Positions 1 to 27,500 of a stretch of 64,000 nt of DNA are shown in pieces. This DNA is from Massalongia carnosa. Taxonomy: Eukaryota. The translations under genes and the position numbers were made by a program. How positions within the stretch are numbered: the first letter of the stretch is position 1; each line of letters begins with the position of its first letter. Location of the stretch: assembly GCA_965645245.1 (NCBI GenBank), contig OZ287088.1, forward strand, positions 930,001 through 994,000, written 5' to 3'. The notes beneath the pieces are model-generated. The model saw only the letters and a list, made by a program, of their open reading frames with translations, made no database searches and was not told where the DNA came from.

Positions 1-3000
1 GAGCAGCGCTCATTGCCCCAAGACTGGCCTAGCAAGAATCAAATCCAGGCCCTAGTTGAGATGGCCATTCCCCTGTTTATCTTCGCTGCCACGGCCTGTC
101 GATTTATTGAAGATAAACGAGACAATCCTAAAAAGCGCTTGGAGAACATTCTTCAGTATCAAACGACAAATCAGGTCTCCAAGCTGGATAGAACGTATCT
201 TCCAATTCTAAATCAGTTATTTGATGATAAAGACGAGGTAGACAAAGAGAGGAGGACTAGCGAATTCCGAGAATTAGTCGGGAGTATTGTTGTTCTGGAG
301 AGTCCCCTCTCGATTGTCTCACTTGCACACCTCCTTAATATTCCTAAAGAGGATATTAGCTGCAGGCTAGACTTACTACACTCTGTGCTCAGCATCCCTG
401 TTGACGAGGATATGCCCATAAGGCTTCTACATTTATCTTTTCGTGACTTTCTCCTTGATACTCAAAAGCTTGGGAAGAGCCCGTTCTGGGTAGACGAGCG
501 GGAAACGCATAAGAGATTAGCTAGCAAGTGCATTCAACTAATGTCCAGTCCAAAGGGTCTAAGGCAAAACATGTGCAACTTAACGAGGCCTGGAACTCTA
601 AGAAGCGAGCTCAATAATCAGATAATAGACAATGCTTTATCACTAGAAGTCCGATACGCCTGCCGCTACTGGGCGCACCACTTAAAGCAGAGTGAAGGCT
701 GTATCCGTGACGGAGACCCAGTTCACGTATTTCTACAAAAGTACTTCCTTTACTGGCTAGAAGCTATGAGTCTTATGGGAGAGACATCCAATAGCATTTG
801 TATAATTAACAACCTGCAACCGCTTACAGATGTAAGGTATTATTAGGCCCTTTGTATTGGTTCCTATTCTTACTTGTCAATCTAGGCCGATAAAAGTGCC
901 GCGATATCGGCCTTTCTTCACGATGGAAAGCGCTTTGCCCTGCGGAACAGATCAATACTAGAAGAGGCACCTCTACAACTCTATTCTTCAGCCTTAATCT
1001 TCGCTCCAGAGATGAGTATAACACGGAAAATATTCGACGATCATATTCCTAAATGGATTACTAGACTACCAAAGGTGCAAAAAGATTGGAATGCCTTACT
1101 GCAGACGCTCGAGGGTCACTCGAGCTGGGTCATCGCTGTAGCCTTCTCGCCGGACGGCCAGCTGATAGCGTCTGCCTCGCTCGACAACACGATCCGGCTC
1201 TGGGACACAGGTACAGGGTCTTGCCGCAGCACTCTCGAGGGTCACTCGGCCGTGATCAAGGCTGTAGCCTTCTCGCCGGACGGCCAGCTGATAGCGTCTG
1301 CCTCGTACGACAAGACGATCCGGCTCTGGGACGCAGGTACAGGGTCTTGCCGCAGCACGCTCGAGGGTCACTCGGACGAGGTCAGGGCTGTAGCCTTCTC
1401 GCCGGACGGCCAGCTGATAGCGTCTGCCGACAAGACGATCCAACTCTGGGACGCAGGTACAGGGTCTTGCCGCAGCACGCTCGAGGGTCACTCGGACGAG
1501 GTCAGGGCTGTAGCCTTCTCGCCGGACGGCCAGCTGATAGCGTCTGCCTCGGACGACAACACGATCCGGCTCTGGGACGCAGGTACAGGGTCTTGCCGCA
1601 GCACGCTCGAGGGTCACTCGGGCTGGGTCAGGGCTGTAGCCTTCTCGCCGGACGGCCAGCTGATAGCGTCTGCCTCGTACGACAACACGATCCGGCTCTG
1701 GGACGCAGGTACAGGGTCTTGCCGCAGCACGCTCGAGGGTCACTCGGACTGGGTCAGCGCTGTAGCCTTCTCGCCGGACGGCCAGCTGATAGCGTCTACC
1801 TCGCTCGACAACACGATCCGGCTCTGGGACGCAGGTACAGGGTCTTGCCGCAGCACGCTCGAGGGTCACTCGGGCTGGGTCAGGGCTGTAGCCTTCTCGC
1901 CGGACGGCCAGCTGATAGCGTCTGCCTCGGGCAACAGCACGATCCGGCTCTGGGACGCAGGTACAGGGTCTTGCCGCAGCACGCTCGAGGGTCACTCGGA
2001 CTGTGTCAGCGCTGTAGCCTTCTCGCCGGACGGCCAGCTGATAGCGTCTGCCTCGTACGACAAGACGATCAGGCTCTGGGACGCAGGTACAGGGTCTTGC
2101 CGCAGCACGCTCGAGGGTCACTCGGAATGGGTCAGCGCTGTAGCCTTCTCGCCGGACGGCCAGCTGATAGCGTCTGCCTCGTACGACAAGACGATCCGGC
2201 TCTGGGACGCAGGTACAGGGTCTTGCCGCAGCACGCTCGAGGGTCACTCGGGCTGGGTCAGGGCTGTAGCCTTCTCGCCGGACGGCCAGCTGATAGCGTC
2301 TGCCTCGTTCGACAAGACGATCCGGCTCTGGGACGCAGGTACAGGGTCTTGCCGCAGCACGCTCGAGGGTCACTCGGGCTGGGTCAGGGCTGTAGCCTTC
2401 TCGCTGGACGGCCAGCTGATAGCGTCTGCCTCGGACGACAACACGATCCGGCTCTGGGACGCAGGTACAGGGTCTTGCCGCAGCACGCTCGAGGGTCACT
2501 CAGACTGGGTCAGGGCTGTAGCCTTCTCGCCGGACGGCCAGCTGATAGCGTCTGCCTCGTTCGACAAGACGATCCGGCTCTGGGACGCAGGTACAGGGTC
2601 TTGCCGCAGCACGCTCGAGGGTCACTCGGACTGGGTCAGGGCTGTAGCCTTCTCGCCGGACGGCCAGCTGATAGCGTCTGCCTCGGGCGACAAGACGATC
2701 CGGCTCTGGAACGCAGGTACAGGGTCTTGCCGCAGCACGCTCGAGGGTCACTCGGCCGTGATCGAGGCTATAGCCTTCTCGCCAGATGGTTCACATCTAA
2801 AGACTGATAGAGGGCAAATCTCCATTCCTTTATCTCTCCATAGTGCTCCTTTCCGTCAGAAAAAAGAGCTATGTTCTGTCTTTGTTGAAGATCAATGGAT
2901 AGCTTTTAATGAACAAGGTTTTCTTTGGCTTCCATCCGACTATCGACCGATATGTTCAGCTATTTACGGGAACTTTATCTGCTTGGGATATGTATCCGGT

Positions 3001-3129
3001 CATCTTACCTTTCTCGAGTTTAATTTTGAAAGTATACCTTCGCATAAAGAACCTGCACAGAGCTCTATGACCCTTATCGGTGCCGTTACCTTCGCTTGCG
3101 CTGGGGGGGCTTTTAATTGGATGAATTGA
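1..3129 (+). CDS. NACHT-WD40 NLR-like protein (HET-E/HNWD type), 5' end outside window; exons <1-831 and 886-3129
   Basis: Post-NACHT motifs (LFIFAATACRFI, LHLSFRDFL, YACRYWAHHL, FLYWLEAMSL). Intron 832-885 (GTAAGG..CTTAC..TAG, 54 nt) splices in frame into ADKSAAISAFLHDGKRF..APLQLYSSALIFAP, followed by WD40 repeats. Confidence 0.93.
1105..2790 (+). repeat. Tandem 126-bp WD40-coding repeats: 13 full units (unit 3 is 120 bp) plus 1 degenerate unit
   Basis: Units start at 1105, 1231, 1357, 1477, 1603, 1729, 1855, 1981, 2107, 2233, 2359, 2485, 2611, 2737; consensus TLEGHSxxVxAVAFSPDGQLIASASxDxTIRLWDAGTGSCRS. Confidence 0.97.
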
Positions 3130-6166: not shown

Positions 6167-9100
6167 TCACAATCTTTGCAGTCCCAGTTGATCGATGAAG
6201 CGTTTGAAGATAGGCTTGTTCAAAGGCTTGGTTAGCCCGTCAGCGATCATTTCTTCGCTTGGCACATAGTCGACATGAATTCGATTTCGCTTGTGTAGAT
6301 CTCGAATATGATGGTATGCCACGTCTATATGCTTAGACCTATCATGAATGTGAGCGTCTTTAGCCAACTAGATGGCAGCCTAATTATCTCCCTTCAGCTG
6401 TATTGGAAAGTCAACCTGATTGCTTGCCGTTTTCGCGAATGTTGACACTGGGATCGAAGTATTTAGCAAAGCCTATATCCTTCATTAGCTGAACGAGCCA
6501 AATGCCCTCTTTAGCACATGTGGATAGAGCCATGTATTCTGCTTCGGTGGTTGAAGTAGCAACCGACTTCTGCTTTCTGCTCATCCATGATATAGGTAGG
6601 CCCTCCTCCTAACATGAATACATATCCTAAAATCGACTTTTTCTCAAGTCTATCGGCCGCGTAATCTGAATCGGAGTATCCAATGAGACTATGATTTCTC
6701 TCTGTTCCGTAGAGTATGCCAAGATCGATGGTGGATCGAACATATCGAAGAAGTGCCTTGAGCGCATGACCGTGATGAATAGCAGGATCGCTTAATAATT
6801 GGCTTAGCCTTCCAAGAGCGAATGCTATATCTGGTCGTGTGTGAATCGCAGCGTACATGAGACTTCCAACGATTTGCTGATACTCCTTTTGATCTATGCG
6901 TTTGTCGTCTTTTCCAGCTGGTCGCAGTGAATCGTAGCCATTCATGGGAATTTCGGTAGTCCTATGCTTGTCAGCGCTCATGTGCGTTCTTTCCATCACA
7001 TATTTGAGATAGTGTGTTTGATCCATTCGGAGTATGCGATTCTTGCGATCTCGGGTGACTCGAATGTCTAGAACTTTTGACACTTCTCTTGATCTTTGAT
7101 GCTGACGGCAGTGTTGAATTCTCGTTTGAACCAGTTGATTTCCTTCATCATCTTGGCGGCTATCACTAAGTCATCTACGTGCATGAATATAATGATACCT
7201 TTGACAGGATGAGTGAATAAGCATGGATCGGAAGGGCATTGTGCGAAGCTTAGCTCGATCAGCTCATTGGTGCAGCAGCTATGCCATTCTCTAGCGGATT
7301 GCTTTAGACCGTAGAGACTTTGCAGAATCTGAAGAGCTCTACCGGGGGCGACCTTGACTCCTTCCGGTGCAGTCATATAGATGGTATCCTTTAGGGATGA
7401 CTGAGTGAATGCGTTATTCACATCTACTTGATGGCATTCCAAATTCTCCAGGGCTACTATAGCGAGTACTGTGCGTAGAGTGTCTGATCTTACCGTGGGA
7501 GCAAAAGTGTCCTCATAGTCGATGCCGTATTTCTGGGTAAATCCACGGGCGACTAATCTTGCCTTTAACTTCTCCAACGAGCCGTCGATATTCAGTTTGA
7601 CCTTGAATACCCATTTGCAAGTGACAATATTCGTTTTTGGAGGTGGGACAACTTCTTTCCATGTCTTATTGCTAATCAGCGCGTTGATCTCGGTGTCCAC
7701 TGCTTCCTTCCATAACTCCCCCCACACTGGATCATTCACCGCTTCGCGATAAGATCTAGGTGTTGATATGTTCTTTCCTGACGAAAATGTATTTGCGGAC
7801 ATGGCAGACTCCCATTTGAGATGTCCATATTCGTCATTGTCCATTGTCATCAGCGAATAATGCCAGGAAGGCGCGAGGTATTTTGAAAGCCGGTTCCTCG
7901 GGAGCTAAATCTTCATTGGATCGTTTGCGCTTAGGGATCGCCACATGTGAGAATATGGGTGCGATTGCGGCAGGAGCTGATGTGGCTGCAGCGGGAGCTG
8001 GGTCATTCGTGATTGGGGCTGGATCGGGAATTGATGTTGATGATGCGTCTTGGGTGACATAATTGTTTGGATTTAATTGATCAGGAGCTTCATGTGTTGG
8101 TTGATCTTCGTTGCTAGGAATCTCCACATGCGAAAATCTTTCCGCGATTTTGGCAGCAGGTTCGTTGTTTTTCATCTCCTTTTGTGGTCTTCCTACCGGG
8201 CGTCTTTCGGGTAAAATGTTGAGAGTCTGCTTTCGCAGCTTCAAATCCATGTCGCCACCCTTCAGATTTTCAGCAAACTTCACCACAAGACTTCTGATAA
8301 CTCTCCCTAGATCAGGTTCCCAGAGACGATACTGCTTGGTAGTCTCTTCTACGTACCCCATGAACACTCCTACCCTTCCTCTATCCATGAACTTGTCCCG
8401 TCTTCCTCCTGCAGGCAGCGATTTGGGGTCGACGTATGAGTAGCATTTGCAGCCCCAGACGCGGATGTGATCAATGGATGGCTTGATGCCGGTGAAAGCC
8501 TCCTCTGGTGTGCTTGTATTGCCGTCGAGAGTTGGTCCACATCCCGTACGATTGCGAAGATATGCGTCCGCTTCCATAGCCTCCTTCCAGAATTCGATAG
8601 GGAGTCCTGCGTCCTTTGTCATGGCTCGCACCGAGTTCTCGGTGGTGCGGATGACCCGCTCGGCGACTCCGTTTTGAATGGACATATGGGGTACGGTGTA
8701 TTGTGGGACGATGCCGATTGAAGAACACCATTCGTCCAATGTGGCCTTCAATTCGGTGGCATTATCGCTTCGTACAGCCAGCAATCGTTGTCCGCTTTGC
8801 AGCTCGACCTTTAGCCTCCACTTCCGCAGTTCTCCTGGTGCTTCTTCTCGTTTCTTGAGCGGAATGGACCACATCTTTCTGGAATAGTTATCCACAATTT
8901 CCAGGAAATATATGTATCCTTCTCGAGAAGCAGGCAAAGGACCGCAGATGTCGATAGAGACTAACGCCAAGAGAGAGGTTTTTCGTTCGGTTGTCTTCCC
9001 TCTTTTATTGGTGAGCTTGGTGAGGGCGCATACCTCGCAGACGTGATCTTCATCTTTGCTGATTGGAATGGGCTTTTTTAGAGTGGTCACTTTGTGCAGA

Positions 9101-10803
9101 TTGCGCAGCTTTTGTCGACCTAAGTGGGCAAATCTTCGGTGCCATAGCCTGTACATTTCGAGGATCTTGTCAGCCTTGTTTGGAGTGGGTGTTGACGCTG
9201 TTTCGATATTCATTTGATCATGTGGCAGGGACGTTGAATCCGTGCGGCGCGGTTTTACCTGATCCTGCATGCTTGGAAAGGCAGTGTCATGATGCATGGA
9301 TGCGATTAAAGCAAATTCATCGATATCTTTTGCTATTTTCTCGACAATATATACTCCCCCTCGCTGTCGTGCTTCCAAGATTTCCTTACCTTGCTTATCA
9401 TAAATTCGTAGCCCATGCTGATTGAAACTTCCAATGACACCCTTCTCACACATTCGCCTGCCAGATAGAAGATTAACCCCCAACTTGGGGACGTAGAGAA
9501 CAGAAGTAAGAAATCCTCGATTGCTATGCTTGTCCTTAATCACACATGTGCCGCGATGATGAGCGTATAGCTCTCCTCCGCCGACCTTTATCTTTCGTCT
9601 TCTGATTCTGGTCAGAGGTCCACTAAATAGTTGAAGGGCGTCAGTCATATGAGACGATGCACCGGAGTTAGCTACCCATTTTGATCTGGGGATCTTAGTG
9701 ACTGCTTCTCCAGAGAGGGCCACAGTTTCTTCGGGGTCATCATCATTGCTTGATGCGAAATCTTCTTCTTCATCTTCCTCTTCTAATTCGCCGGCGAGAT
9801 AGCTTCGATGGCGCTTGGCGGATTGCTTGCCGATTCTCTTCTTCCTCTTTGCCAGGTCTTTAGCATGCGAACGTGCGCTCTCTAGGAAGTCACATTCTCT
9901 CATTCGATGAGACTCGTCCCCGCAGATGAAGCAGCCCTTTCTTGATTCTTCTTTGTCCTTTGCTCCTCTTCTTGAGCTCGTGGAGCTATGGCGCTTGGGC
10001 TGTTTGGATGGGCTGTGGCTTCTTGATGAATTAAACGGCCTTCGCTCTCGCTTTTGCTTTGCGAGCACAGCTTCTTCGACCTTTGATTGTGTCAGCTGCA
10101 TTTCCTTGTCTTCCAGTCTTTTTATGCCGATTTCGGCATCCACCCCTCCAATCGCGTCAATTCCGTCTCTGATAACGGCGTATTCAGCCGGGAGCGATTG
10201 TAGAAGCAGTTGAAAGAGTTGCTGAGTGGAAAATGCATCGCGAAGTTTGGGCGTGGCCATGATGACCTTGTCTCCCAACAACAGAAGTTCCCCCCATGCA
10301 TCCTGAATGGTGGTGTTTTGTTCCATCTTGTATGACACTAGCTCTTGGAGATATTGTCTTCCTGATGTGGGAAGTATGTTGCTGTATTTGTTGAACAGCG
10401 AGATCCATTTCTCTGCCGCTGTTTTCATTGCCCGTACGCGTTCTTGATCGAACTGACCTAAGCAAATGGTAATGAGATAAGATGCCTTTGCGTTATCCTT
10501 TTTCCAATTTTCTGATTTCACGATTGGGGTACCTGGAGTGAGAGGACTGCTTGTCTTCTCCTTTCCTTTTCCATCAATGCTCAGTTTGTCCATTTGCTGC
10601 TGGAGAAGTGCTGTTGGATTGAGGTTTGGCTGTGGGTCGCTGATGGTGTGGAAGATGCCCTCCGCCTCGAAGTGCATTTCGGCTAGTTCGAACCATCTTT
10701 GATAGATTTCCCTAGTTAAAATGGGCAAAGGTCTTCTTTTAGCTAGATCGTCTGCAATTGTTGTCATTTTGTAACTTGTGCTTGTTGTTTTCCTTCGTAT
10801 CAA
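6167..10803 (-). pseudogene. Copia gag-pol, frameshifted (~7840, ~7075, ~6590) and with stops
   Basis: Zn knuckle CFICGDESHRMREC; protease WVANSGASSHM (D>N); LWHRRFAH; rve (SIDICGP, RSDNA, QNGVAER); RT (KARLVARGF, SLYGLKQS, HVDD); RNase H (YSDSDYA, RSKHIDVAYH, MIADGLTKPL). Confidence 0.93.
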
Positions 10804-10820
10804 ACTGCCGATAGTGCGTG

Positions 10821-10952
10821 TGCTGATTTTCCCTACCTAAGGGAATCGTAATGAGCTGCCGAAGTACTGATTCTTCCAATCTAAAGGAATCGTAATGAGC
10901 TGCCGAAGTGCTGATTCTTCCTCTCTAAAGGAATCGTAGTCGAGCTGCCGAG
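10821..10952. repeat. Three ~44-bp tandem repeats in the Copia 1 leader
   Basis: TRCTGATT(C)TTCC..CTAARGGAATCGTARTGAGCTGCCGA x3. Confidence 0.85.
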
Positions 10953-11105: not shown

Positions 11106-11610
11106 TCAGATGGAAATGCTCAGCAGAGAGCGGTTTATTCTTATCAACGCCGAAGCGATCGATATTGGTGGCCACTGTTTATTTTTTTTGTTAAATGCTG
11201 CTGCGCTCAATGCATACAAGCTTTATCTAATTGATGACTTCAGAACAGAAGGAAAAAAACTCACTCGTACGGATTTTACTCATCATTTTGCCCTCAGTCT
11301 GATGAAGAATCCCGCTGGACAAACCCGACGACATGAGTCAAAGATAAGGATTCAGACCAACTCTGAGCCTTTTGTTTCTACCCCCGAGCAGCATTATATT
11401 TATTCATCTGGAGAAGAAGCGGAAATGCGAGCCCTGCAATGTCAATAAAACAAGGCCCTCCAAAAGAAAACGGGAGCCTTTGGCTGAAAGAGACGCTAAT
11501 GGCAGGAAAAGAAAGTAGCGAGGTTCTCAAACAAGATGGGCGTGTCATCCAATCAGACCTTGTTGTTAAAATCAGGCCTGCTGGGCGGCAATACATTTGA
11601 ACTTGATTGG
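11106..11610 (+). pseudogene. piggyBac-type transposase C-terminal fragment
   Basis: Across frameshifts it reads SDGNAQQRAVYSYQRRSDRYWWPLFIFLLNAAALNAYKLY, then a Cys-rich tail KCEPC..TRWACHPIRPCC..ACWAAIH. Confidence 0.7.
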
Positions 11611-13162
11611 GCAATTCTTAAATAGGGTCAGAAAGGGGTAGCAAGCCGCTTATCTAATTGGTAGATATTTAAGGTTTCGGGAGCTCTAAACCATCTATAG
11701 CTAGTGCGGGGGGGTGCCAATTCAGCAGCGAGAGGGATAGGTGCCCCGCGCCCGGAACGTCATCGTACCTACTTGGGCGCTCATGTATTGCGCCCGCTGG
11801 CTAGCAGTACTGAGTACCGCTGTAACAAATGCGATCAATGTTTCGTCGAATGCAAGCAGTATTGAATGCAAATGAAGATTATATTAAATATTAGTTATAT
11901 GTAAACAAATAATCGCATCCTTTTACTGAAACGTTGATTTTGTAACAGCAACATAGATAATTCATAAGTTACAGCTCTGGAATTCGTTTAAATTGGCCTA
12001 TCCGGACACTAACGACCTATCATAATAGTGTTGTTTGGTCTATCTTTTGATGTAGTATCGTCACGGGAGCTAACATCAGTCATCACATGAACAGGCTCAT
12101 TCTATCCTTATTGCGACACAATTAATATTCTATAGCTGCAGTGTCATCCCTTCACCCGCCGTTTTGCTTGCGCTAACCCACTTGATCATCGTTATGCCTC
12201 CTCACCTCGTATTGTGAATTACGGGGTAGTCCGATACAGCGGAACAGTAAGTAGGAATATAGCCGACGAGGGGCGGATTCATCCAGTCTGGCTCGGCCCG
12301 GCCAGCCTGGCCAGCCATGGAAACGTCGAGGCCAGCGGTGGATCCGGCTTTGAGGCTTGAACTCGTCCAAAGGGCACAATCTGCGTGGAGTCGATGTGCT
12401 TGTGATTGGTTGTGCCGACATCCGGAGAGGAGAACAGAAACCCAGCGTATAAAAGTTCGATAGAGTTTGCGTTAACGCGTTATGTATCCTGCATCTGCTG
12501 CATGTGCTGCATCCTTGTGGTATACATACCGGGATGATAAAAACGCATGACTATACCTATCTCCACCAATTAAATACTTATATGATGTGTTTCTATGAAT
12601 TGATCCTTTTGCACAAACTATTAGCGCGTTGTTATGCGTGTGTATACCGCGCTACTCAACCCTCCCATTTCAGATTGCGGACAGCGCGGAATGTGTGCTG
12701 GACTGATGTGATGTAAACGCTGAGGACCATAGTACACGTAAAGTCAATATGCTGAAGAAAAAGAAGAAGAAAAAACCGCCAGGACCGAGGAGTGTCGTAG
12801 AACGGTCTGGATGTTTCGAGTCACTTCAAGAGACAATAACGGTACGAAAACCATTAAGTACTTTGGAATTTGCGACAGCTTGGTCCTGATTCGAGTTGAG
12901 CGATGGCGCTGCTCGGTCATATCGTGCATGCCCCCGACAAATTAAATACTTGTGTTGAATAGTGAGACGCTGCAGCCGGCGGACATCCCCAACCGAAGTA
13001 CTACAATATAGAGTTATCAATGCCACATTCAAACCCAATCATCGGGTTATTACGTCACGTCATCTCCAGATCACCACCTTCAGGTCATCATCTTAGGAGG
13101 TCATCATCTTAGATTGAGGGGGTTGAACCTACTTCATGATATGCAACCGACGATTGACTCAC

Positions 13163-13596
13163 ACGATCCCACCAGTAATGCCCCGCCGTACACGGCAAGG
13201 AGGACAGCGATCCAGATTTGCACTGTTGGCTCTCGTCAGCGGCGTCCCTCATCCCACCGCGGGGGGCTATGTATTACCATCGTTGTCGTCCACATGGATC
13301 CGATGTGGCAAAGCGTAGGGAAGGACGGGTATTATCTGCAACTCGGCTCAGTCATCAGGTCGTCCATCAGCCGCAACAACGATCCTCACCGTGCCAAACA
13401 GAAATACATCCTGTGATTTTCGTCAGCCTTGTTGAATCATGGAAAGCGTCAGGTGCGGGAAGACCCACGTTGAAGATTGCCACACACACGGTAAGCAGGA
13501 TAAAGGAGGGCGATGAGCGTAATCGCAAGAACGGCGACGGCGACGGCGATGGCGACGGCGACGCGCTTGTTGCCCTGACATCTCAGCGGTGATCAT
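13163..13596 (-). pseudogene. MFS transporter exons 1-4, inverted relative to the rest of the gene (13596-13469, 13410-13390, 13335-13278, 13222-13163)
   Basis: Spliced minus strand reads PFLRLRSSPSFILLTVCVAIFN|DVFLFGT|IIPVLPYALPHRIHVDDNDV|QIWIAVLLAVYGGALLVGS. Three GT-AG introns of 58/54/55 nt, a fourth donor GTGAGT at 13162, and a 1-nt frameshift near 13562 after MITAEMSGQQA. Confidence 0.88.
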
Positions 13597-13694
13597 GTTC
13601 AAAATGAAATTGCGAGACGGAAATTATTTCGCAGGGCGAGTCGAATGTCCTGCCGGAAGCCCTTGATGGCCAATGAACTGACATTCGATGAAAG

Positions 13695-15032
13695 TGGTGT
13701 TCGGTTGGGTTGGTGATATGTTACCACGGCGACATGCTCTGTTTCTCTTTGGGCTTTTGATACTGCTCGTAGCGACCGTGATCCTTGCATTTGGCCGCCA
13801 GATCGAGGTGTTGATCATCGGACGCCTTTTGCAAGGGTTGTCGGCCGCCGTGACGTGGACCAGTGGCCTAGCGATGCTGACCGACATCTTTGGCCAAGAG
13901 AGGTACGGTGAGGCGGTCGGATACGCTCAGACCTCAGTCAGCGTGGGCACGACTTCCGCCCCGCTGCTGGGTGGTATCGTGTATGCGTGGGGTGGATATT
14001 CGACCGTGTCGGCAATGAGCATTGGAACCATCACCATCAGCTTGGCATTAGCATTGCTCATGCTCGAACCCAAGGTGAAGGCGGGATGGGACGAATCGGC
14101 TCCTGCATTGCCGGTTGCAGGGAAAACCTACGAACCCGTTGCGCCGGGCGAGGTCAGCAAAATCAGACGAGGAATGCCGGGTCCCCCCGCGCTCGAGCCG
14201 GCTTCGAAACTTCCAGACGAACGAACCAACCTGATTCCACGCAGTCGCAAATACCGTCCAGCCTACCCCTTACTACTGCGTTCGGGGCGGGTTCTCGCGG
14301 CGATGGGGGGAATTCTCATCTATTCTTTCGTCATCATCAGTTTTGAGAGTTTGATCCCTTTGTTTGTCAAGGAGACGTTTCATAGGGACTCGACACACGC
14401 GGCCTTGATATTTCTGGCATGGATCATTCCGGGGTTCTTGGGATCTCTTGCGGGAAGGGCATCGGACAGGCTCGGGTCACGGTGGGTCGCGGTGGGAGGA
14501 TTGCTTTTCTCGGTCCCACCTCTGGCGATGATGCGATTTGTCACGGAAGACAGCACTTCGCACAAAGTGCTCTTGTGCGGTTTGCTCACCCTGGTTGGTA
14601 AGTGCTTCCTCGGGTGCTCATTCTGTGGGGCTCGGCCGACACCCATGAAACCGGTCAACTGATGAAGGCCGGCAATGCATAGGTTTAGGGCTCGTGTGGA
14701 TCATGCCCGCGTGCGTATCGGATCTTCGGGCGGCTGCAACCGACCTGAAACGCAAACGTCCTGGTGATTTCGGCGACATGGGTGCCTCGAGTCAGGCGTT
14801 TGGTCTCTTCGTGTTTGCTTATTCGTGCGGGACCATAGCCGGACCGACGGTGGTCGGGATCATAAAAGCCAAGGTGGATTGGGGCGCGGCGACGTTGATT
14901 ATGGCATTTGCATGCGCGGCGGCGTGTGTACCCATCGTAAGTGTCATCCGCTATCCACCCCAGCAATCCATTGCTCATCGAACGTGTGGAAAGGTGCTTA
15001 AAACCCCTCAACCCTCCCGTAAGCATACATGA
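13695..15032 (+). pseudogene. MFS transporter exons 5-7 (13695-14597, 14683-14936, 14994-15032), DHA1/vesicular amine transporter-like
   Basis: VFGWVGD..GRLLQGLSAA..APLLGG motifs; acceptor AACTGAC..AAAG at 13694; introns 14598-14682 and 14937-14993 (GTAAGT..AG). The N-terminus is not on this strand. Confidence 0.88.
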
Positions 15033-15972
15033 ATCTCGAAGACGACACAATTACAAGGAGCATTTCATCCAGATGTTGCGCGGTAAAAGGAAAAGCGTAT
15101 ATGAGCGCTCGTTTCTACTTGGTTCACGAGAAAATGTACAAATGTAACATTATCATGATAGGAGAATTGACCGCGATAAAAGTTCTGACATCGCAAACAA
15201 TCAACAATCTTTCAGTTATAACGAGAAGAGACGCAATAGAAAAAGAAAAACGATTGCTGAACCGGTCCTGACCGGCATAGTTTTATGTATGTACAGATCG
15301 TCAGAAAAAAATTTTGATTACTCGCGAGAAGCTAATTTGAACGACGTTAATTTCATTTATTTGCGATTATAAGTTTTTTCAAATTGAAGATTAAAGGTTT
15401 ACATATATTCAATCAACAATTATTGACAAAAATATAAGAATCTATTCATGACATCTCTCGTTTGACTTTATAATAATGATTATATATTTATATTTCGATA
15501 TGTCATCGATCGTAGGTCGACTAATGAGACTAAAGCTATCTCAGTTATATTGCATGAATACGCAGCGCAACGCGTTGGATTTTCGTCACAAAATTGTTTT
15601 CTCGTTATCAGATTTTTCTTTCAAAACTCAATTATATCCGTTTGCAAAATAATATTGCGAACTTTGAATACCGAAACTGCGCGATAATAAAACAAGCGAC
15701 AGAACTGAATCACAGATCAGAATTTGATGCAGTAGTTAACAATTCTTCTTCTCTTCGCATCGTCTTTTGCAGTCTGTAGAATAAATGATATGTGATATTT
15801 TCATGTAGATATTTTTTCTTGCTTTCTCGTAAGTTTAAAAGCCATAAAACTATTATTTAACATTATCAAACGTCAGATTATAAGTTTCAAATTAAATTCA
15901 AATAAAAATAATAACAAGATTATAATTGCTGTTAATGTCAGCTTTAGACAATTACGTAAGATAAGACGTAAT

Positions 15973-16584: not shown

Positions 16585-19500
16585 AGTTACCGATATTGAG
16601 TCGCCAACTCGCCGCCGAGGCGGAACACGTTGTGATCGGCGATTTCAATCTACACCACCCGCTCTGGAACGGCCCTACGAGGCCCACTCAACACACCGCA
16701 GCCGACCATCTGCTAGATCTAGTAGAGAATCACGACCTATCGTTAACACTGCCCAAAGGCTCAGTGACGTGGGAAGCTCGAGGGTCGTTCAGCACCATAG
16801 ATCTAGTATTCATGTCGGAATACTTAGCAGAAAGAATAGAGCATTGCAAGACGAGACCCGACTTAAATCAATCGTCAGATCACATCCCGATATCTACCCG
16901 CATCCTACTAGGCTATGAGATACCTAAGTCCATCAAACGCCGAGCCTGGAAGCTTCTGAACATGGAAAAGCTAAGAGAGGCTGAGCAAACCGCCCCCCCT
17001 ACGAGTCACCCACGCTCGCGCGAGGAGATTGACGAATACACTCACACCATACAGAAGTTTCTTCAGCGGGTGATCGCCGCTTCCGTTCCGTGGGCGAAAG
17101 CAAGCGCACACGCCAAACCCTTTTAGAATCCCGAATGCAACGACGCCACAAAGCAATCCCGCAGACTGCGCAGAATATGGAGCGCCACACATCTCAGGGA
17201 AGATTGGATAGCGTACATGAAGGCGAACGACAAAAAACAAAAGATAATTCAAAAAGCGAAAACGCTCTCGTTTCGTAAAAAGATAAGCCGCGCCACCGAA
17301 TCGCCCCAGGGAATCTGGAAACTCGCCAAATGGGCCAAAAACAAGAGCAATGCAGGCCGCGAAGTACCGAAAATGCCATCGCTCGAATTCAACGATCAAA
17401 AAGCGTTCACATTCGAAGAGAAATCCGAAATGCTTAAGAGCACTTTCTTTCCAGCACCGCCCCCGGCGGATCTACGCGACATACCCGGAGCGTTCTATCC
17501 CGCCGAAATCGAATGCCAGAGAGAATAACGAGAGAAGAGGTTCTTACGAACATCCAACGACTCAGTGCGGACAAGGCGTCCGGACCGGACGGCATTTCCA
17601 ACAGAATCCTAAAAGCATGCGCCGAGAAGCTAACGGACCTACTCACCCCACTGTATCAGGCCTGCGTAACGCTCGCGTACCATCCTCGAGCCTTCAAAAT
17701 CGCAAACACAATCACGCTGAAAAAACCGGGCAAAGACGATTACACGACCCCGAAAGCCTATCGACCGATAGCGCTATTGAACACAATAGGCAAGGTACTA
17801 GAAGCAGTGATCGCAAGAAGAATCACCCACATGGCCGAGAGCAACAACCTGCTACCCGACATGCAGATGGGGGCTCGTAGAGGAAGATCCACCGAATCGG
17901 CACTGGAACTTCTCACGGAACAGGTGCACACGGTCTGGGGCCAGGGCAACGATAAGGTGGCAACACTGCTCAGCATGGACGTAGCAGGAGCGTTCGATAC
18001 CGTATCTCACCAAAGATTGATACACAATCTGCGAAAGAGAAAGATTCCCAAATGGATTACCGATTGGACCGAGAGCTTCTTGAGCGAAAGAAGGACAACG
18101 CTTACGATCCAACGACGCACCACCGACGTATTCGATGTGAGAACAGGGATCCCCTAGGGCTCTCCCATTTCCCCGATTCTATATTTATTCTACAACGCAG
18201 ACCTGCTGGAAATATGTCAAAGACCAGGCACGAATACAAGCTCACTGGGCTTCGTAGACGACGTCAACGTTCTGGCATACGGCAAAAGCACCGAGGAAAA
18301 CTGCAGAACGCTAGAAAGAATTCACAAGGAATGCGAGAGATGGTCCTTACGCCACGGCTCCGTGTTTGCCCCGAGCAAATACGAGCTTATTCATCTGTCC
18401 AGAAATCTGAAAAAATTCGACATGACGGCCACCATCAGGATAAGCACAAAAACGATCGAACCCAAACCGGATATCAGGGTGCTGGGTCTACAAATCGACA
18501 CCAAACTGAGATGGGGAGCCCATGTAAGGAAAACTCAAGAAAAAATGACGAAACAATCGGGTGCACTGACCAGGATCTCCGCGTCCACCTGGGGAGCCTC
18601 GTTCTCGAAGGCCAGACAGGTTTATATTGCGGTCGTTCGTCCGGCAATGACCTACGCATCCGCCGTATGGCACACACCGAAAGAAATAGGGAAAAGCAAA
18701 GCCGCGACGAGCAAGCTGGCGGTCATGCAAAACAAGTGCTTGCGAACAATAACGGGTGCATTTCGGGCCACCCCGATTCCATTATTGGAAACCGAAACGC
18801 ACGTGACGTCTATAGAATCGCATTTGGAAGAATTACAAGTCAAAGCGAGATATCGCCAACGAACCGCCGGGCAAACGAGACTCATCTCGTCTTTCTGCAA
18901 GGAGATAGAACGCAAGTTGCGCGGAAAAGCGGGCAAGAAAAGATCGCCGAAACCGACCCCAGGAATGCTCAAGCACGAATGGGCCAAAAACACAGTGATC
19001 AGCGCCATACCCACCGCAGACCCAACGCCGCACCCACCCTGGATCACGCCTACGGAGCAACACATGCTCACAGCCAATGCAGTAAGGATGAGTCGCAGCG
19101 CTCACACGAAAGCCACAAAAGCGCATTACAAAACGAAATGGCAGACAACCTGGAAAGCATATCAAGATCGCGTACCCTTTCCCACCGAAGCACAGCGTGC
19201 TTCCTTAACCAAAGGAAGAATCAAAATACACGACAATCTGGCAAAAGCGGAAAGCGCGTTAGCTACCCAAATTCGCACGGAAAAAATAGGTCTGGCAAGT
19301 TTTCTATTTAAACGACGAGTTCCCAACGTGACGACGGCGGCCTGCAGCTGTGGTTGGCCCCAGCAAACGGCCAAACACGTAATCATGCACTGCCCATTAA
19401 TGACGGGAAGACAAGAGCTGTTTCGGCGTATAAATACCAACGAGTATCGTACGATACTCGAAACATCCAAAACATTGAAACAGGTAACGAGATGGATTAT

Positions 19501-19759
19501 CGAAGTTGGCGTTTTGGCGCAATTTTCCTTATCGGCAAGCTTGCTATACAAGCAATAATTTTCTTTTCATTCAAGGGACTCATCGAAAAAGCACACGAGC
19601 AGCACAGCTGGAGGTCGTTGGGACCTCGTACGCGCAGCGTTGGCAATGGGTTTTTATTCCTCTTGAAGGTTTTCCTGTAGCATAGTAGTCCATCCCGCAT
19701 GGGCCGGCCTTCGGCCGGTGACATATCGGCGTAAGAATATATCTATCTATCTATCTATC
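16585..19759 (+). mobile_element. 5'-truncated Tad1-like LINE, ORF2 (endonuclease-RT-Cys motif) with stops at 17124 and 18155 and a frameshift at ~17520; (ATCT)n tail
   Basis: APE motifs VIGDFNLHHPLW and SDH; RT motifs KASGPDGI, YRPIALLNTIGKVLE, SMDVAGAFD, GFVDD; CSCGWPQQTAKHVIMHC; tail at 19739-19759. Confidence 0.92.
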
Positions 19760-22700
19760 AGTGAACCAGCGATCTTGGAAAAGCCTCTTATGAAACGTCG
19801 ATAAAACTTACAGAATCCTATGAAAGATCGCACTTCACGAAGACAGGTGGGGACTTCCCAACTGACTATGGCCTGAACCTTGGCTGGATCCATTTTTATT
19901 CCTTCCGTGGTGATGATTAACCCCGAAGTACTTGACTTCAATAACATGAAATTCGCACTTGTCTACATCCACTTGAAGACCAGCTTCCTGAAGTTTGGCC
20001 AACACTTTTCGGACATGTTCTCGATGTTCTGTAATATTCTTGCTGTAGATCAAGATGTCGTCCAAGTAGGCTGAGCAGACTTTATCCAGGTACTCGAACA
20101 GAATGTCATTGATGAAATGCTGCCAGGAAGAAAGTCCGCCGGTCAGTTCGAATGGTAACTCCTTGTATTTGTACGCTCCAAAGCGGCAATTGAAGGTGGT
20201 AAGGTCCTCTGATTCCCTGGCCATTCTCAGCTTGTGAAAGGCCTGTCGAATTTCCAGTTTGGAAAACACTTTGGCTTCCTTCAACTGGGCTAGCGTTTCA
20301 TCAATCAAGGGCAATGGATATCTATCTTTCTTACTTAGTTGATTCAATTTTCTGTAATCAACACAGAAACGGAGTCCTCCACCTGGTTTCTTGGCTAATA
20401 GGATAGGAGAAGAACATGCGGCATGACTGGCCTCTATGAACCCCTTTCTTAGATTGTCGTCTAGATATTTCTTCACGAACTCCAATTCCATGCGGGACAT
20501 ACTCCTCAAAGAGCTGTGTCCATGATCTTGGTCTCCGGTCAACAGGACCCTGTGCTCGTATGGACGATGAGGTGCTAGCTCATCTGATTCAGCTTTGGAG
20601 AAAACCTTCAGAATGTCATGATATTCTTCAGGAACTTTGATCTTCGGGTCGGTAGGAGTCGAACTTTCCTTGTTTAGTTGATAGTCAATGTCCCTCAGAG
20701 AAATTGCGAATAGTTGAACGTCTTTCTCCTTGGTCAGTGATTTGTAGGCCGCAGCCCCTATGAGGGCGCAGTCTATCGGCTTATCTTCGGCAGATGACTT
20801 TTGTGATATTCTTTCTGATAGTCCTTTTCCGATTTCCTTAAAAGGGACCGACAATGGGGCGGATCGTTCCGTACAGGTCTCTTCCGGTCGGACCAGGATT
20901 TGTCGGACCGTTCGGGTCTGTTCTGGTTTGTTCGAAGCCGACGTTGTCTGCCTCATCATTTTCATTGGTGTTGGCAGTCCAGGGGCGCCAGGATGGGTGC
21001 AATGCCCAGGCCAGAACATGATCTTGTCGTCCTTCATGTCCAGGAGGAGTCCGTGCTTCCTCATCCAAGGTTTTCCTAGAATCATTCCGTGCTGTCCTAG
21101 TTTGGTGATCAGCAATGGTAATAAGTTCTCACGATGATCCTGCATCGTCATGGTAGGATAAATGGCATGGGTTATATTAGGGGCCCGTCGTCTATCAAAC
21201 CCTCGCACCGGTTTGGGTTTCGTCAGTTTCTGGGGTTCGATTTGAAGTTGTTCACAAATAGTGCGCACCATTGATTCGTCGATAAAAGCATGTCCCGTAG
21301 CACCGGTGTCTAAAAGAGCATCAAGCTTTATCTCATTCTTATTACCTAACGTACATGCATGAACAAAAGGTTCATCAGTGAACAAATCACCAGGTAAATA
21401 GGAAGAGAAGATCAATAGAGGTTCCTCCTCATCCGCGCCTTCAGATGAGGTTATTCTTTTCCCGTCTCGCCGCTCATTTCGTGGATAGTGGCTTTGGAAG
21501 TCTTGCTACAGTCTTTTGCCAAATGTCCCTTTTCTTTGCAGTAAAAACATCTACCTTCCTTCGTTAATTGTTCTCGTTCCACCTCAGTCAAACGTCCCGA
21601 TGTGACAGCAGGTTCAATAGGGACGGAGTGAGAAGGTAAGGTTGAAGGTTTGGATGCAGGAGTGTCCACTCTAGGCTTGAAGGGTGTTGATGTTTTGATG
21701 ACGTTTTTCCTTCCTTCGTTCATTCGATCATAGCTCGCTTTTAAACTCTCGACATCTTTCAAAGCTTGAAAAATTCGCTAACAACGATGAGCATACTCAT
21801 AAATGTCCGTGGGTTCCTGATTTCCGATGGCCAATTGCTTTTTCATGTCCAAGGAGAGCTTGTGAGTGAGTTCATCAATAAGGAGGGGCTATAATCTAAC
21901 TCCGAAGATAATCGTTGAAAGTCGGACCAGAAAGAATTGAAGTCCTTACTTCCCATGCGCAAGGCCCTAAATGCCTTCATAGCAGTGTGTTTTCGATTGG
22001 GGTCCCCATAAATTCGTTCCAATAATTCCAACATTTCCTCAGCGGTCTCGAAAGGTTTGGCGGCCCCTTTCCTCAATCTGGCTTCCATGTGTCGCATGGC
22101 ATCACCATTCACTCGGTTCTCTACATAGGCTTTTCGCAATATCTCGGTTGGCATATGGTCCTCATTGGCCAACAACTTGCTTCGCATTTTGGCTAGCCAA
22201 TGATCGATGTTCGGTTCCTTTCTGTCGGAAAATACCGGTGGGTCAGGAAGCTTCAAGGAACGTTTTTCCTTCTGACTGATGTGGAAAAAGAGGTAGTAGC
22301 AACATCCGGTCGTCGCTCTTCGATCAATGTCAACCTAAGCTTTTCGACTTCCTTTTGTAAGTAATTCACTACTCCTTCTTGTTGTTCGGTCAGGAAGAGG
22401 AGTCGGCTCGTGGTGTTCTTTCCTTTGGCCGCTTCAGCTTGGGCCTCTTCATAACTTTCCTTGATGGCTAGGATCATCTGTAACACTGCCTGCTCATCCT
22501 GGAGCATCCATGTCCTCGGATGTTCTATGGTCTGGATCATGGAAGGGTCTTCTGCTTCCAGTTGAGTTTCTTCTTCTAGCAGGGCCGGATAATGAACGGA
22601 GTCCTGTTCTGGTTCTTTTTCATGACGATTCGCCATGGTCTCTAATTCTGGTTCTGTATCTAAATAGGGTTCTGGGTGCCACGCTGTAGGGGTGGGGCCT

Positions 22701-24555: not shown

Positions 24556-27500
24556 CTACCTCATGCCCATCATGGCCTTAAAGGCCTTGAACCTTGCTGG
24601 TGGTAGCGGCTTTCTCATCCCATCTGCTATCATTTCATTCGTTGAAATGTATGTGATAATTAGCTTTCGGTCTAGTACAACTTCCCTTATCCAATGATGT
24701 CGTACGTCAATATGCTTTGTTCGTTTATGGAACTCCGGGTTGGCAGTAAGGTCAATTGCCCCTTTGTTATCTGCTCGGAGGTCGGCTGGTTGATTAGGTG
24801 ATCGATGACCGAGGGCCTCGAGGAAGCGAGTGCACCACAAGGCCTCCTTACCTGCCTCGGTGATAGCCATGTATTCGGCCTCACAAGATGACAGAGCTAC
24901 GGTCGGTTGTTGTTTTGATTGGTGTGAAATTGGACCGCCCGAAAGCATCCAAACGTACCCACCGGTCGACTTTCTTCCATCTACGGTCCCCGCCCAATCA
25001 GAATCAGTATATCCAATTAGTTCATCCGGAGAGTCAGCCGAAAATGTCAGTCCTATGGTCAGTGTCCCTGCTAAATAGCGGAAGATTTGTTTGACTAGCT
25101 GTATGTGGGTGGGTCCGGGGTTGCTGCAATAGCGGCTAAGGACTCCCACAGAATAAGATATGTCGGGTCGGGTATGGACTGCTGGCCACATCAGTGATCC
25201 AATTGCTGACTGATACCAGGCCACAGTGGCTTTGTCCGCCACCTGTTTTGAGGGTAGAAGGGAGCTTGCTACTCCCGGATCCATTGGTATGGAGGATGAT
25301 TTGCAGTCGGTCATTCCGAAACGTGCCAGGACCTTCTTAAGGTAGGTGGTTTGTCGAAGGATTATGGTTTTTCCCACGTCAACGTCAATTTCCATTCCCA
25401 AATAGTGGGACACGTCACCCAGGTCCGTCATTTTGAATCGGTCAGAGAGTTCCTTTTGTATGAACTCGAGGCGGGGTATGTCCGCCCCAAAGAGTAGTAG
25501 GTCGTCGACATAAATTGCTATGAATTGCTTCTTGTCATCAGAAACAAACACTCCATGATCAAGTTCCAAGCGATAAAATCCTAGTTTCTTCAGGAAATCA
25601 ACAAGGGTCTGGTACCACACTTGTGGCGATTGTTTCAGTCCATAAAGTGCTTTGATTAGCTTACAGACTAAATGGGGGGTGGTAATGAATAGATGAGGTT
25701 GTTCAACATAGATCAATTCGTCGAGGTAGCCATAAAGGAATGCAGTCACCACATCCATGTGACGTACGATAAACCCTCGTTTGACCCCAACACCCATCAT
25801 TGCTTTGTATGACATGGGCTTGACCACTGCAGCGAAGGTGTCGATGTAGTCTAGACCTTCTTCCTGCTTATAACCATGAACCACCCATCGTGCTTTGTAT
25901 TTTAGGATATTTCCATGTCGATCTTTCTTCAGTTTGAACACCCACCGTCCGGTGATTACCCGTCGATCTTTTGGTGCTTCGGTCAACTCCCACGTACCAT
26001 TTTCAATATGAGATTCAATTTCGGTCTTCATGGCCTCCATCCATTTGGGCCAATCAGGCCTAGCCATAGCCTCTTTGAGCGAGAGGGGTTCGTCTGGCCC
26101 TTCATTGTCAATGTTATTTGCAAGCATGGTTAGTGCCTTCATCATATGTATGTGGGATTTTGCCACGTTTGTGCTAGTGAAGTTAGTTCATTTCGGTAGC
26201 CTACCTGGTCCATAAAAAATTTCATCAGGATATTGTGTTCGTTTGACTGGTGCCCGCTTGGACCTTCTCAATGGAACATGGTCAGAGGTGGAAGAATGGC
26301 CTTCCGAGGCCTCGGGGGCCTCGGTGTCGGTGGCCTCGGCCTCGGGGTCATGGGCCGGACTATCATAAAGTCTATCAGAATTTCCCCCTCCATAATTTTC
26401 TTCGACATTTCCCCCTTCTGGCCTTGTTTGTTGTGAATCTCCCACTGAATTTTGGTGTGAATGTTCCGTGTTTGGAGGAGAATCGGGGGGTGTAGGTAGG
26501 TGAGGTTTATTTGACCGAGGGGTGTAATAGTCCTCGGGTTTGTTATTTCCCTCGTCGTCAAAATCGTCTGGATTTCCGAACTGATCATCGTCTGTTTGTG
26601 CCCATTCGTCGTCAACAAGCTCGTTTGATTTGTAAGCTTTCCGATCAAATAGGTTCTTTCATCAATAGTTACGTCTCTAGTAACATGAACTTTGCCTGTG
26701 CAGGGGTCATATATCCGATACTGATTAGTGCCTTCATAGCCCACATGGATGCCCTGCCAGGACCGTTCGTCTAGCTTCTTTCGCTTTTCCTTGGGAATAT
26801 GAACCCAAGCACGTGCACCCAACACTCTTAGATGACCGAGGTTGGGCTTTTTGTTGTTTAGTTTCTCATATGGTGTCACCCCGTCCGTGTTTGGACTTCT
26901 GTTCTTCAGATAACACACTGCTTTGCTGATTTCAGGCCATAGGCCCTTCGGTAATTTCATCGCTGATAAGATGGACCGAACTGAACTCATCAGAGTATAA
27001 TTCAGTCGCTCGGCCTTTCCATTTTGCTCGGGTGTGTATGGGGCATTGCATTTCCATCTGATGTGTTGTTTCTTAAGATAGTCCTGAAAGGCTTCATTGT
27101 CATATTCACCTCCCCTATCCGTATGGAGTGCTCCCATCTGCATGCCTGTTTCCTGAGACGCCCATTCGATATATTCCTTTGCCTTCTCAAAGGCCTGGCT
27201 CTTTAGCTTCATTAGATAAACATGATACGTTCCAGTGGCATCATCTTTGAAAGATATGTAGTATTGTAATCCGTTTCTGGAGGCCGGGTATGGGCCTCCC
27301 AAATCACTATGAACCTCTTCCAGGAATTTTGAAGCTCGGGGCATGGGAGTTCGTGACGGCTTACGTTGCTGTCTACCCTTCATACAGGGCCCACAAATTT
27401 CCTCTGGGACCGGCCCTTTCACCTCAATTCCTTCAGCTATTTGTGGAAGTTTGAGGATGTTTCGATAACCAAGGTGGCCCATTCTTTGATGCCATATTTC

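What the first reader, a model, noticed from the sequence alone, without database searches (positions are those of the whole stretch)
13123..15032. MFS transporter gene whose first four exons are flipped onto the opposite strand
Seen: minus strand 13596-13163 holds four exons with canonical introns, encoding exactly the N-terminal helices missing from the plus-strand ORF. Exon 4 ends in phase 1 (GGA TCG T|GTGAGT) and the plus-strand exon at 13695 starts in phase 1 (AAAG|TG GTG TTC), giving ..GGALLVGS-L-VFGWVGD. The block is bounded by short inverted matches: CATGAT (13135-13140) / ATCATG (13592-13597, overlapping the first ATG), plus TTGAAC (13123-13128) / GTTCAA (13597-13602). A 16-bp tandem duplication (13082-13112) sits next to the left end. 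Re-inverting ~13135-13597 restores a 7-exon gene with a ~125-nt intron 4, apart from one 1-nt indel near 13562. The exons carry no in-frame stops, so the event looks recent. Inference: most likely a microhomology-mediated knockout inversion; alternatively a reversible ON/OFF DNA switch (I know of none for a fungal transporter), trans-splicing, or a local misassembly.
Basis: partly seen in the sequence, partly recalled or inferred. Interest (0 to 1): 0.85.

Follow-up and report, generated by a model that had tools for sequence, protein, structure and literature searches.

The report
Small inversion splits fungal transporter gene
In this lichen-fungus genome a 0.5-kb piece of DNA carrying the start of a membrane-transporter gene has been flipped, base-perfectly, relative to a close relative that still has the intact gene, so the gene is most likely a recent casualty of an ordinary small inversion.

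Summary
An MFS transporter gene related to vesicular amine transporters has exons 1-4 on the minus strand (13596-13163) and exons 5-7 on the plus strand (13695-15032). A Sticta homolog aligns residues 22-88 to the minus strand and 89 onward to the plus strand.

It is not a misassembly. Independent contigs from two samples of organism A (4077 and 3209 nt, no differences) span both junctions. A third run crosses the right junction.

A lichen-metagenome run about 2% diverged (X4) carries the segment in the opposite, collinear orientation. That fixes the breakpoints at 13152/3 and 13648/9.

The flip is base-perfect, with a 2-nt inverted microhomology (GA/TC). Undoing it gives a 56-nt intron 4, the same length as in a 64% relative. 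All 5 of 5 more distant loci with upstream DNA are collinear, so the window's state is derived.

There are no long inverted-repeat sites, and none of 80 ORFs encodes a recombinase, so a switch is unlikely. Exon 1 also has a frame break, and an invariant Trp is Arg. No RNA data were available.

Verdict: a real, recent, gene-splitting inversion of a known kind. An earlier scan note records a similar flipped exon in Euglena.

The parts
13152..13649 (.). Inverted segment. The core is 13154-13647. The 2-nt ends GA (13152-53) and TC (13648-49) fit either side of both junctions.
   Evidence: table 5 lists two X4 joints on opposite strands, 13152<->13650 and 13153<->13647, each with 'both'=2. Table 8 shows X4 record 22 as rc(13563..13152) joined directly to 13650..15248, and record 21 as 12546..13153 joined to the reverse strand running leftwards from 13647 (115 letters).
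13469..13596 (-). Exon 1, with ATG at 13596. The ATG frame and the conserved frame (..FLRLRSSPSFILLTVCVAIFN) differ by one base. A (CGGCGA)n hexamer repeat lies at 13531-13563.
   Evidence: P0027 residues 22-42 align to 13531..13469 at 81% identity.
13390..13410 (-). Exon 2 (DVFLFGT)
   Evidence: It is flanked by ..cag and gtgagg. P0027 reads DIFLFGT.
13278..13335 (-). Exon 3 (IIPVLPYALPHRIHVDDND-)
   Evidence: P0021 residues 12-32 align to 13341..13279 at 67% identity.
13163..13222 (-). Exon 4 (-VQIWIAVLLAVYGGALLVGS-), ending in phase 1
   Evidence: P0027 residues 66-88 align to 13232..13164 at 70% identity.
13154..13162 (-). First 9 nt of intron 4 (gtgagtcaa), carried along with the flipped segment
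   Evidence: L001's intron 4 starts with the same 9 letters.
13597..13647 (-). 51 nt of the gene's 5' leader or upstream DNA, flipped with the exons
13650..13694 (+). The 3' 45 nt of intron 4, with branch-point-like ctgac and acceptor aaag, left in place
   Evidence: 9+2+45 = 56 nt, equal to L001's intron 4.
13695..14597 (+). Exon 5. It hits MFS_1 and is open throughout. AGG (Arg) at 14384-86 stands where 57 of 57 homologs have Trp.
   Evidence: One search gives PF07690 at 111.7 bits against a cut-off of 33.4.
14683..14936 (+). Exon 6
   Evidence: P0014 residues 320-406 align to 14679..14939 at 74% identity.
14994..15032 (+). Exon 7 (VLKTPQPSRKHT, then stop)
   Evidence: P0014 ends ..PIVLKTSASS...
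13082..13112 (+). 16-nt tandem duplication, not part of the event
   Evidence: In one search, X4 record 21 covers it, and all 11 window letters that X4 lacks are listed elsewhere (9 at 12576, 2 at 12891).

Best explanation
A single, base-perfect inversion of about 496 bp (13152/4-13647/9) arose in the lineage of this lichen-forming fungus. One break fell 9 nt into intron 4 of an MFS (VMAT/SLC18-like) transporter gene. The other fell about 52 nt upstream of its start codon. The flip turned exons 1-4, which encode the first two membrane helices, onto the opposite strand and cut them off from exons 5-7.

The gene can no longer give one collinear mRNA and is most likely a young pseudogene. This part is inferred.

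The breaks were probably rejoined by end joining, or by replication template switching at minimal homology (2 nt). A weak imperfect inverted repeat just inside the segment ends may have helped. This mechanism is also inferred.
For: Shown:
1. The N-terminal residues of homologs map to the minus strand and the remaining residues to the plus strand, with contiguous residue numbering (88 then 89).
2. The window's arrangement is reproduced without a single difference by Logan contigs of X1 (4077 nt, 11924-15500) and X3 (3209 nt, 12792-15500). These come from two samples of one study. An X5 contig crosses the right junction (13590-13783, 0 differences).
3. X4, a lichen metagenome from another study, differs by 29 letters in 1599 nt. 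It carries the same DNA with the segment reversed. Two of its contigs give the two junctions of the collinear form.
4. X4's allele is the protein P0002. Its 5 amino-acid differences from the window sit exactly at 5 of X4's listed base differences.
5. No base is gained or lost. Undoing the flip gives a 56-nt intron 4, equal in length to L001's and with the same first 9 letters.
6. 5 of 5 related metagenome loci that have upstream DNA (L001-L005; L006 lacks it) are collinear, and annotated full-length proteins of Sticta and Candelina are collinear too. The window's state is therefore derived.
7. Further damage in the window: exon 1 has a frame break (65 nt from the ATG to the conserved frame). 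Arg stands at a position that is Trp in 57 of 57 homologs, while X4 keeps Trp.
8. The gene sits in transposon-rich DNA (Copia, LINE, Gypsy, pogo-like).
Against: - No RNA run was available, so loss of expression or function is inferred, not shown.
- Exons 5-7 are fully open. Only 2 of the 5 amino-acid differences from X4 are derived in the window; I read the other 3 as derived in X4, two of them from variable columns. X4 also has a change (Leu to Met) at a site invariant in 57 of 57 homologs. There is thus no clear excess of decay in the inverted copy.
- Contigs drop rare variants, so a minority of cells with the other orientation in X1 or X3 cannot be excluded.
- X1 may be the sample the window was assembled from. 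X3 is from the same study, and X5 (apparently a proximity-ligation library) may belong to the same genome project. Independence of the three supports is therefore limited.
- The junction microhomology of 2 nt is expected by chance in about 1 of 16 cases (my estimate). The inner inverted repeat is matched or exceeded by 665 of 20000 random pairs. The proposed repair route is weakly grounded.
Confidence: 0.85

Rival explanations
1. Local misassembly: the true genome is collinear and the assembler flipped a 0.5-kb piece.
For: Small inversions are a known assembly artefact. X1 may be the source of the window, so agreement with it is not fully independent (caveat).
Against: Logan's separate de Bruijn contigs of X1 and X3 span both junctions with hundreds of letters on each side and 0 differences. 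X5 crosses the right junction. There is no long repeat at either junction that could confuse an assembler. No collinear-form joint was found in X1, X3 or X5 (table 5).
Confidence: 0.03
2. Reversible ON/OFF DNA switch: the segment flips back and forth and toggles the transporter.
For: Both orientations exist in nature in backgrounds about 2% apart. The exchange is base-perfect, as conservative recombination would give.
Against: The two junction regions share only 2 nt, plus a weak imperfect repeat on the inner side. The outer half-sites do not match, as read. 0 of 80 ORFs of 120 aa or more in the window match a tyrosine or serine recombinase family; only retroelement integrases and DDE transposases were hit. 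X1 and X3 contigs show one orientation only. The window's copy carries further lesions, a frame break and W230R, which a working switch would not tolerate.
Confidence: 0.03
3. The gene still works in two pieces, either by spliceosomal trans-splicing of an exon 1-4 RNA to an exon 5-7 RNA or as two separately made polypeptides (2 helices plus 10 helices).
For: The exon 4 donor (GTGAGT) and the intron 4 branch and acceptor are both intact. Exons 5-7 have no stops, and an in-frame ATG at 13688 could start a truncated product (P0002 was called from it).
Against: The exon 1 frame break stops the N-terminal piece being made from ATG 13596. Exons 5-7 have lost their promoter-proximal leader, and twelve ATG triplets lie on the plus strand between 13152 and 13687. 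From recall, not tested here: routine mRNA trans-splicing is not known in ascomycetes.
Confidence: 0.04
4. The inverted form is ancestral for this species group, and X4 re-inverted or never had the flip through lineage sorting. On this reading the flip is an old polymorphism kept by selection.
For: Only one collinear close relative (X4) was seen. The window's exons 5-7 show little decay.
Against: All more distant relatives are collinear (5 of 5 loci; annotated proteins). Parsimony therefore places one inversion on the window's branch. Divergence inside the segment (6 in 412 nt) is like that of the flanks (29 in 1599, 11 in 608), so there is no sign of an old, separately evolving haplotype.
Confidence: 0.04

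Closest known systems
Microinversions and small inversions with precise reverse-complement copying and short flanking inverted repeats (Potapova, Kondrashov & Mirkin 2022, PMC8755829; abstract read)
   Same: The inverted DNA is the exact reverse complement with no bases lost. Short, imperfect inverted repeats sit at the ends. Template switching or microhomology-mediated repair is the proposed cause.
   Different: The described events are 17-33 nt long, whereas this one is about 496 nt. Here the repeat is weak (3.3% of random pairs match it) and lies inside the segment rather than flanking it.
Gene-disrupting intragenic inversions, such as the F8 intron-22 inversion in haemophilia A (recalled, not checked here)
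   Same: One break lies in an intron and one lies outside the gene. The 5' exons are turned away from the 3' exons, and the gene is inactivated without loss of coding sequence.
   Different: Those events arise by homologous recombination between long inverted duplicates and span hundreds of kilobases. Here there are no long repeats and the event is 0.5 kb.
Programmed DNA inversion switches (Hin/Gin/Fim invertases; FLP/FRT of the yeast 2-micron plasmid; recalled)
   Same: A short segment holding a gene's 5' end occurs in two orientations, and the exchange is conservative.
   Different: There are no matched inverted recombination sites and no recombinase gene in the window. Only one orientation is seen per sample. 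No such chromosomal switch is known in filamentous fungi (recalled).
Fungal MFS_1 transporters related to vesicular amine and acetylcholine transporters (SLC18). Assignment to the DHA1 group is recalled.
   Same: Exon 5 matches PF07690. The 39%-identical full-length homolog P0076 has VAChT and VMAT2 as its best solved matches (E 1.3e-17 to 4e-13, residues 70-213). One source names a homolog 'related to vesicular amine transporter'.
   Different: In the window the first two helices are encoded on the other strand and the frame of exon 1 is broken. The substrate is unknown.

Membership tests
Major facilitator superfamily, MFS_1 (PF07690) | Profile match above Pfam's gathering score | tested here: met
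   window:13682-14659 scores 111.7 bits against a cut-off of 33.4. The exon 6 ORF scores 26.1 bits, below the cut-off on its own.
Major facilitator superfamily, MFS_1 (PF07690) | One collinear gene encoding both six-helix halves | tested here: not met
   homolog residues up to 88 map to the minus strand and residues from 89 to the plus strand. Exon 1 is out of frame with its ATG. This is a broken member of the family.
Programmed DNA inversion switch | Matched inverted-repeat recombination sites at both boundaries | tested here: not met
   One search shows only 2 shared letters at the joints. In one search the best local pairing of the ends scores 7, a value reached by 665 of 20000 random pairs. 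One search lists no inverted repeat at 13152/13649.
Programmed DNA inversion switch | A site-specific recombinase encoded nearby | tested here: not met
   80 of 80 stop-to-stop ORFs of 120 aa or more were scanned. None matched a tyrosine or serine recombinase family. Spliced or shorter genes could be missed.
Programmed DNA inversion switch | Both orientations within one clone or sample | tested here: inconclusive
   X1, X3 and X5 show only the window's form and X4 shows only the collinear form. These are contigs, which drop rare variants.
Precise small inversion (structural variant) | Segment is the exact reverse complement between two otherwise collinear sequences, with both junctions observed | tested here: met
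   tables 5 and 8: two X4 contigs give both junctions, with no letters between the sides.
Precise small inversion (structural variant) | Polarity: the derived state can be told from outgroups | tested here: met
   5 of 5 loci with upstream DNA are collinear; annotated homologs are collinear.
Spliceosomal trans-splicing | Mature RNA joining exon 4 to exon 5 from separate transcripts | not testable with these tools
   One search listed no RNA holder.

The most novel reading that the evidence does not exclude
The flip is not a one-off accident but a recurrent, reversible, base-perfect inversion. Both states exist in near-identical backgrounds. On this reading it acts as a heritable ON/OFF toggle of a transporter in a lichen fungus, using a mechanism that needs only minimal homology at a hairpin-prone pair of ends.
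Probability: 0.03. Interest if true: 0.8.

Novelty: new member of a known kind. Interest (0 to 1): 0.3.

Why it matters
The case is clean and fully resolved. Both alleles of a natural 0.5-kb inversion were recovered, with junctions known to the base and a clear polarity, in lichen-forming fungi, where structural variation is little studied.

It shows how a gene can be inactivated without losing a single coding base. It also shows how ORF- or exon-based annotation would still report a plausible truncated transporter; P0002-type calls start at an internal ATG.

For annotators, the lesson is to check N-terminally short MFS models for flipped 5' exons. Beyond that it is an ordinary pseudogenising structural variant in transposon-rich DNA.

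Tried and rejected
- **Whole genome:** none is held for this window, so paralogs and other inversions could not be sought.
- **RNA evidence:** no RNA holder was listed, so expression, splicing and trans-splicing were not tested.
they are present, but X4's joints lie elsewhere. Rejected as breakpoints.
- **16-nt tandem duplication as part of the event:** rejected. X4 record 21 spans it, and all 11 window letters that X4 lacks are accounted for elsewhere.
- **X5 record 26:** it stops matching at 13157, 4 nt from the left break, and runs on for 383 unlike letters. I first took this for a possible third allele. All 4 of 4 internal alignment ends of X5 pieces (12187, 13157, 13590, 13783) fall at GATC or GANTC sites, against 33 such sites in 4001 nt. 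I therefore read them as proximity-ligation chimeras; this is an inference.
- **X1 joint 12774 to 13533 (side 21 letters):** it links two low-complexity runs and is below the 30-letter guide. Treated as spurious.
- **25-nt direct match 12907-12931 vs 13962-13986:** 84% identity, blastn E 0.012 in a 2-kb search. tblastn finds nothing around it, so it is chance or a tiny relic and was not pursued.
- **Is the exon 1 frame break shared by X4?** The output does not settle it. X4 records 21 and 22 overlap by 31 nt in window coordinates, where neighbouring contigs overlap by 30. That would fit one extra base in X4 between 13534 and 13578, which is what the frame needs. This is only a hint.
- **Literature:** two full-text searches found no paper on this locus or on small gene-splitting inversions in lichen fungi.
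- **Earlier scan notes:** nothing for this genome. A word search gave one analogous note on other DNA.
Full report
**What is there**

The window is fungal, and its best protein relatives are from lichen-forming ascomycetes (Endocarpon, Candelina, Sticta, Bacidia).

On the plus strand, 13695-15032 holds three exons of an MFS transporter: 13695-14597, 14683-14936 and 14994-15032. The large exon matches Pfam MFS_1 at 111.7 bits against a cut-off of 33.4.

A full-length homolog, P0076 (39% identical to exon 5), has vesicular acetylcholine and monoamine transporters as its closest solved relatives (E 1.3e-17 to about 4e-13).

The plus-strand part starts at ..VFGWVGD, which is just after the second membrane helix of homologs.

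The missing N-terminus lies on the minus strand. tblastn of Sticta P0027 maps its residues as follows:

| P0027 residues | Window coordinates | Strand |
|---|---|---|
| 22-42 | 13531..13469 | minus |
| 42-68 | 13413..13279 | minus |
| 66-88 | 13232..13164 | minus |
| 89-385 | 13694..14599 | plus |

Reading the sequence gives four minus-strand exons: 13596-13469, 13410-13390, 13335-13278 and 13222-13163. Their introns have GT..AG ends and are 58, 54 and 55 nt long. Exon 4 ends in phase 1 and exon 5 begins in phase 1.

**Is it real DNA or an assembly error?**

Five public runs hold this stretch. I laid four of them on 11500-15500.

- **X1 and X3.** These are two samples of organism A from one study. 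In each, a single Logan contig reproduces the window without any difference across both junctions: X1 has 4077 nt covering 11924-15500, and X3 has 3209 nt covering 12792-15500.
- **X5.** This run comes from another study. One of its contigs crosses the right junction (13590-13783, 0 differences).
- **Other X5 pieces.** Some break off abruptly. All 4 of 4 such internal ends lie at GATC or GANTC sites. I take this as the signature of a proximity-ligation library, not of another allele.

There is no long repeat at either junction that could mislead an assembler. Misassembly is therefore very unlikely. The caveat is that X1 may be the window's own source sample.

**The other allele, and the true breakpoints**

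Run X4 is a lichen metagenome from a different study. It holds the same locus at about 1.8% divergence (29 differences in 1599 nt).

- Its 2035-nt contig reads the reverse complement of 13563..13152 and then continues directly into 13650..15248.
- Its 731-nt contig reads 12546..13153 and then continues on the opposite strand leftwards from 13647 (tables 5 and 8).

X4 therefore has the segment in the opposite orientation, which is the collinear, normal gene.

In both joints two letters fit either side: GA at 13152-53 and TC at 13648-49, which are reverse complements of each other. No letters lie between the sides. The inversion is therefore base-perfect, spans 13152/4-13647/9 (494-498 nt), and has a 2-nt inverted microhomology.

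The left break is 9 nt into intron 4. The right break is about 52 nt upstream of the ATG. Undoing the flip gives an intron 4 of 9+2+45 = 56 nt. That is exactly the length of intron 4 in the 64%-identical locus L001, which also begins gtgagtcaa.

The protein P0002 (98% identical, from a 2035-nt contig) is X4's allele. Its five amino-acid differences coincide with five of X4's listed base differences.

**Which state is derived?**

Five of five related metagenome loci with upstream DNA (L001-L005; L006 has none) have the N-terminal exons upstream on the same strand. The annotated full-length proteins of Sticta and Candelina are collinear as well. The window's arrangement is therefore the derived one.

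Divergence between the window and X4 is similar inside the segment (6 in 412 nt) and in the flanks (11 in 608 and 29 in 1599). This points to a recent event, not an old, separately evolving haplotype.

**Other damage**

- **Exon 1 frame break.** The ATG at 13596 and the conserved frame (..SPSPFLRLRSSPSFILLTVCVAIFN) are 65 nt apart, not a multiple of three. A TGA at 13585-83 closes the conserved frame upstream. In L001 the same distance is 45 nt and in frame. The break lies in or beside a (CGGCGA)n repeat and is present in the X1 and X3 contigs.
- **Is it shared with X4?** The output does not show this. An odd 31-nt overlap of X4's two contigs, where neighbouring contigs overlap by 30, hints at one extra base in X4. 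This is unproven.
- **Amino-acid changes in exon 5.** The window has Arg (AGG, 14384-86) where 57 of 57 homologs and X4 have Trp. X4 in turn has Met where 57 of 57 have Leu. Of the five amino-acid differences, I read two as derived in the window and three in X4, two of those three from variable columns.

There is no clear excess of decay, which again fits a young event.

**Mechanism**

The conservative exchange with only 2 nt of shared sequence fits two routes. One is two breaks rejoined by end joining. The other is replication template switching or microhomology-mediated repair, as proposed for precise microinversions (PMC8755829, abstract).

The inner ends of the segment form an imperfect inverted repeat (13152-13160 against 13638-13649). 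In a test of same-spaced pairs, 665 of 20000 random pairs did as well, so this is weak support.

**Why a programmed switch is unlikely**

- The two junction regions do not share recombination-site-like sequence.
- None of 80 ORFs of 120 aa or more in the window matches a tyrosine or serine recombinase. The hits are retroelement integrases, reverse transcriptases and DDE transposases.
- Each sample shows a single orientation.
- The inverted copy carries further lesions.

Contigs cannot exclude a rare minority orientation, so I leave about 3% for this reading.

Trans-splicing or two-piece function could not be tested, as no RNA run was listed. The exon 1 frame break argues against it.

**Context**

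The gene is an island in transposon-rich DNA:

- Copia-type elements at about 6.5-10.8 kb and 24.5-29 kb.
- A LINE-like element at 16.6-19.6 kb.
- Other reverse-transcriptase ORFs at 19.8-21.5 kb.
- pogo/Tc5-like transposases at 29.3-32.9 kb.
- A chromodomain Gypsy element at 59.4-63 kb.

A stretch at 11500-12035 has 20-250 times the single-copy depth in all four runs.

**Verdict**

This is a real, precisely resolved, recent inversion that splits an MFS transporter gene. It is a new instance of a known kind of mutation. Interest is modest.

Noticed in passing
window 11500-12035: This stretch has summed contig depth 20-250 times that of the neighbouring single-copy contig in all four runs, for example 121654 against 792 in X3. 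It is covered by many short variant contigs. It is a very high-copy repeat, perhaps an LTR of the adjacent Copia element, lying 1.1 kb from the left break.
   Followed up: no
window 6514-10836 (-), 24559-28997 (-), 16587-19555 (+), 19838-21505 (-), 29300-32910, 54461-55852 (+), 59442-62989 (-): The window is dominated by transposable elements: two Copia-type polyproteins, a LINE-like endonuclease-RT, RT/aspartyl-protease ORFs, pogo/Tc5 DDE transposases, and a chromodomain Gypsy element. Host-like genes are few: WD40 at 886-3126, the MFS gene, a glutamine-synthetase-like ORF at 33783-34829, and a TPR ORF at 39403-41181.
   Followed up: partly
window 13531-13563: A hexamer repeat (CGGCGA, 5.5 copies) lies inside exon 1 and encodes (SP)n in the conserved frame. 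X4's contigs break exactly here and extra depth appears in that bin, which suggests length variation among strains.
   Followed up: partly
window 12907-12931 vs 13962-13986: A 25-nt direct match at 84% identity links the upstream region with exon 5 (codons for PLLGGIVYA). blastn E is 0.012 in a 2-kb search. It is isolated and is either chance or a tiny relic.
   Followed up: partly
window 13641-13649 / 13680-13688: A perfect 9-nt inverted repeat (TCGAATGTC / GACATTCGA, 30 nt apart) straddles the right breakpoint in the window's form. In the collinear form the same letters would be a direct repeat.
   Followed up: no
run X5 pieces on window 11924-13783: X5's partial contig alignments end at GATC or GANTC sites in 4 of 4 cases. 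This suggests X5 is a proximity-ligation (Hi-C-like) library whose contigs are ligation chimeras, so joints from such runs should not be read as alleles.
   Followed up: yes
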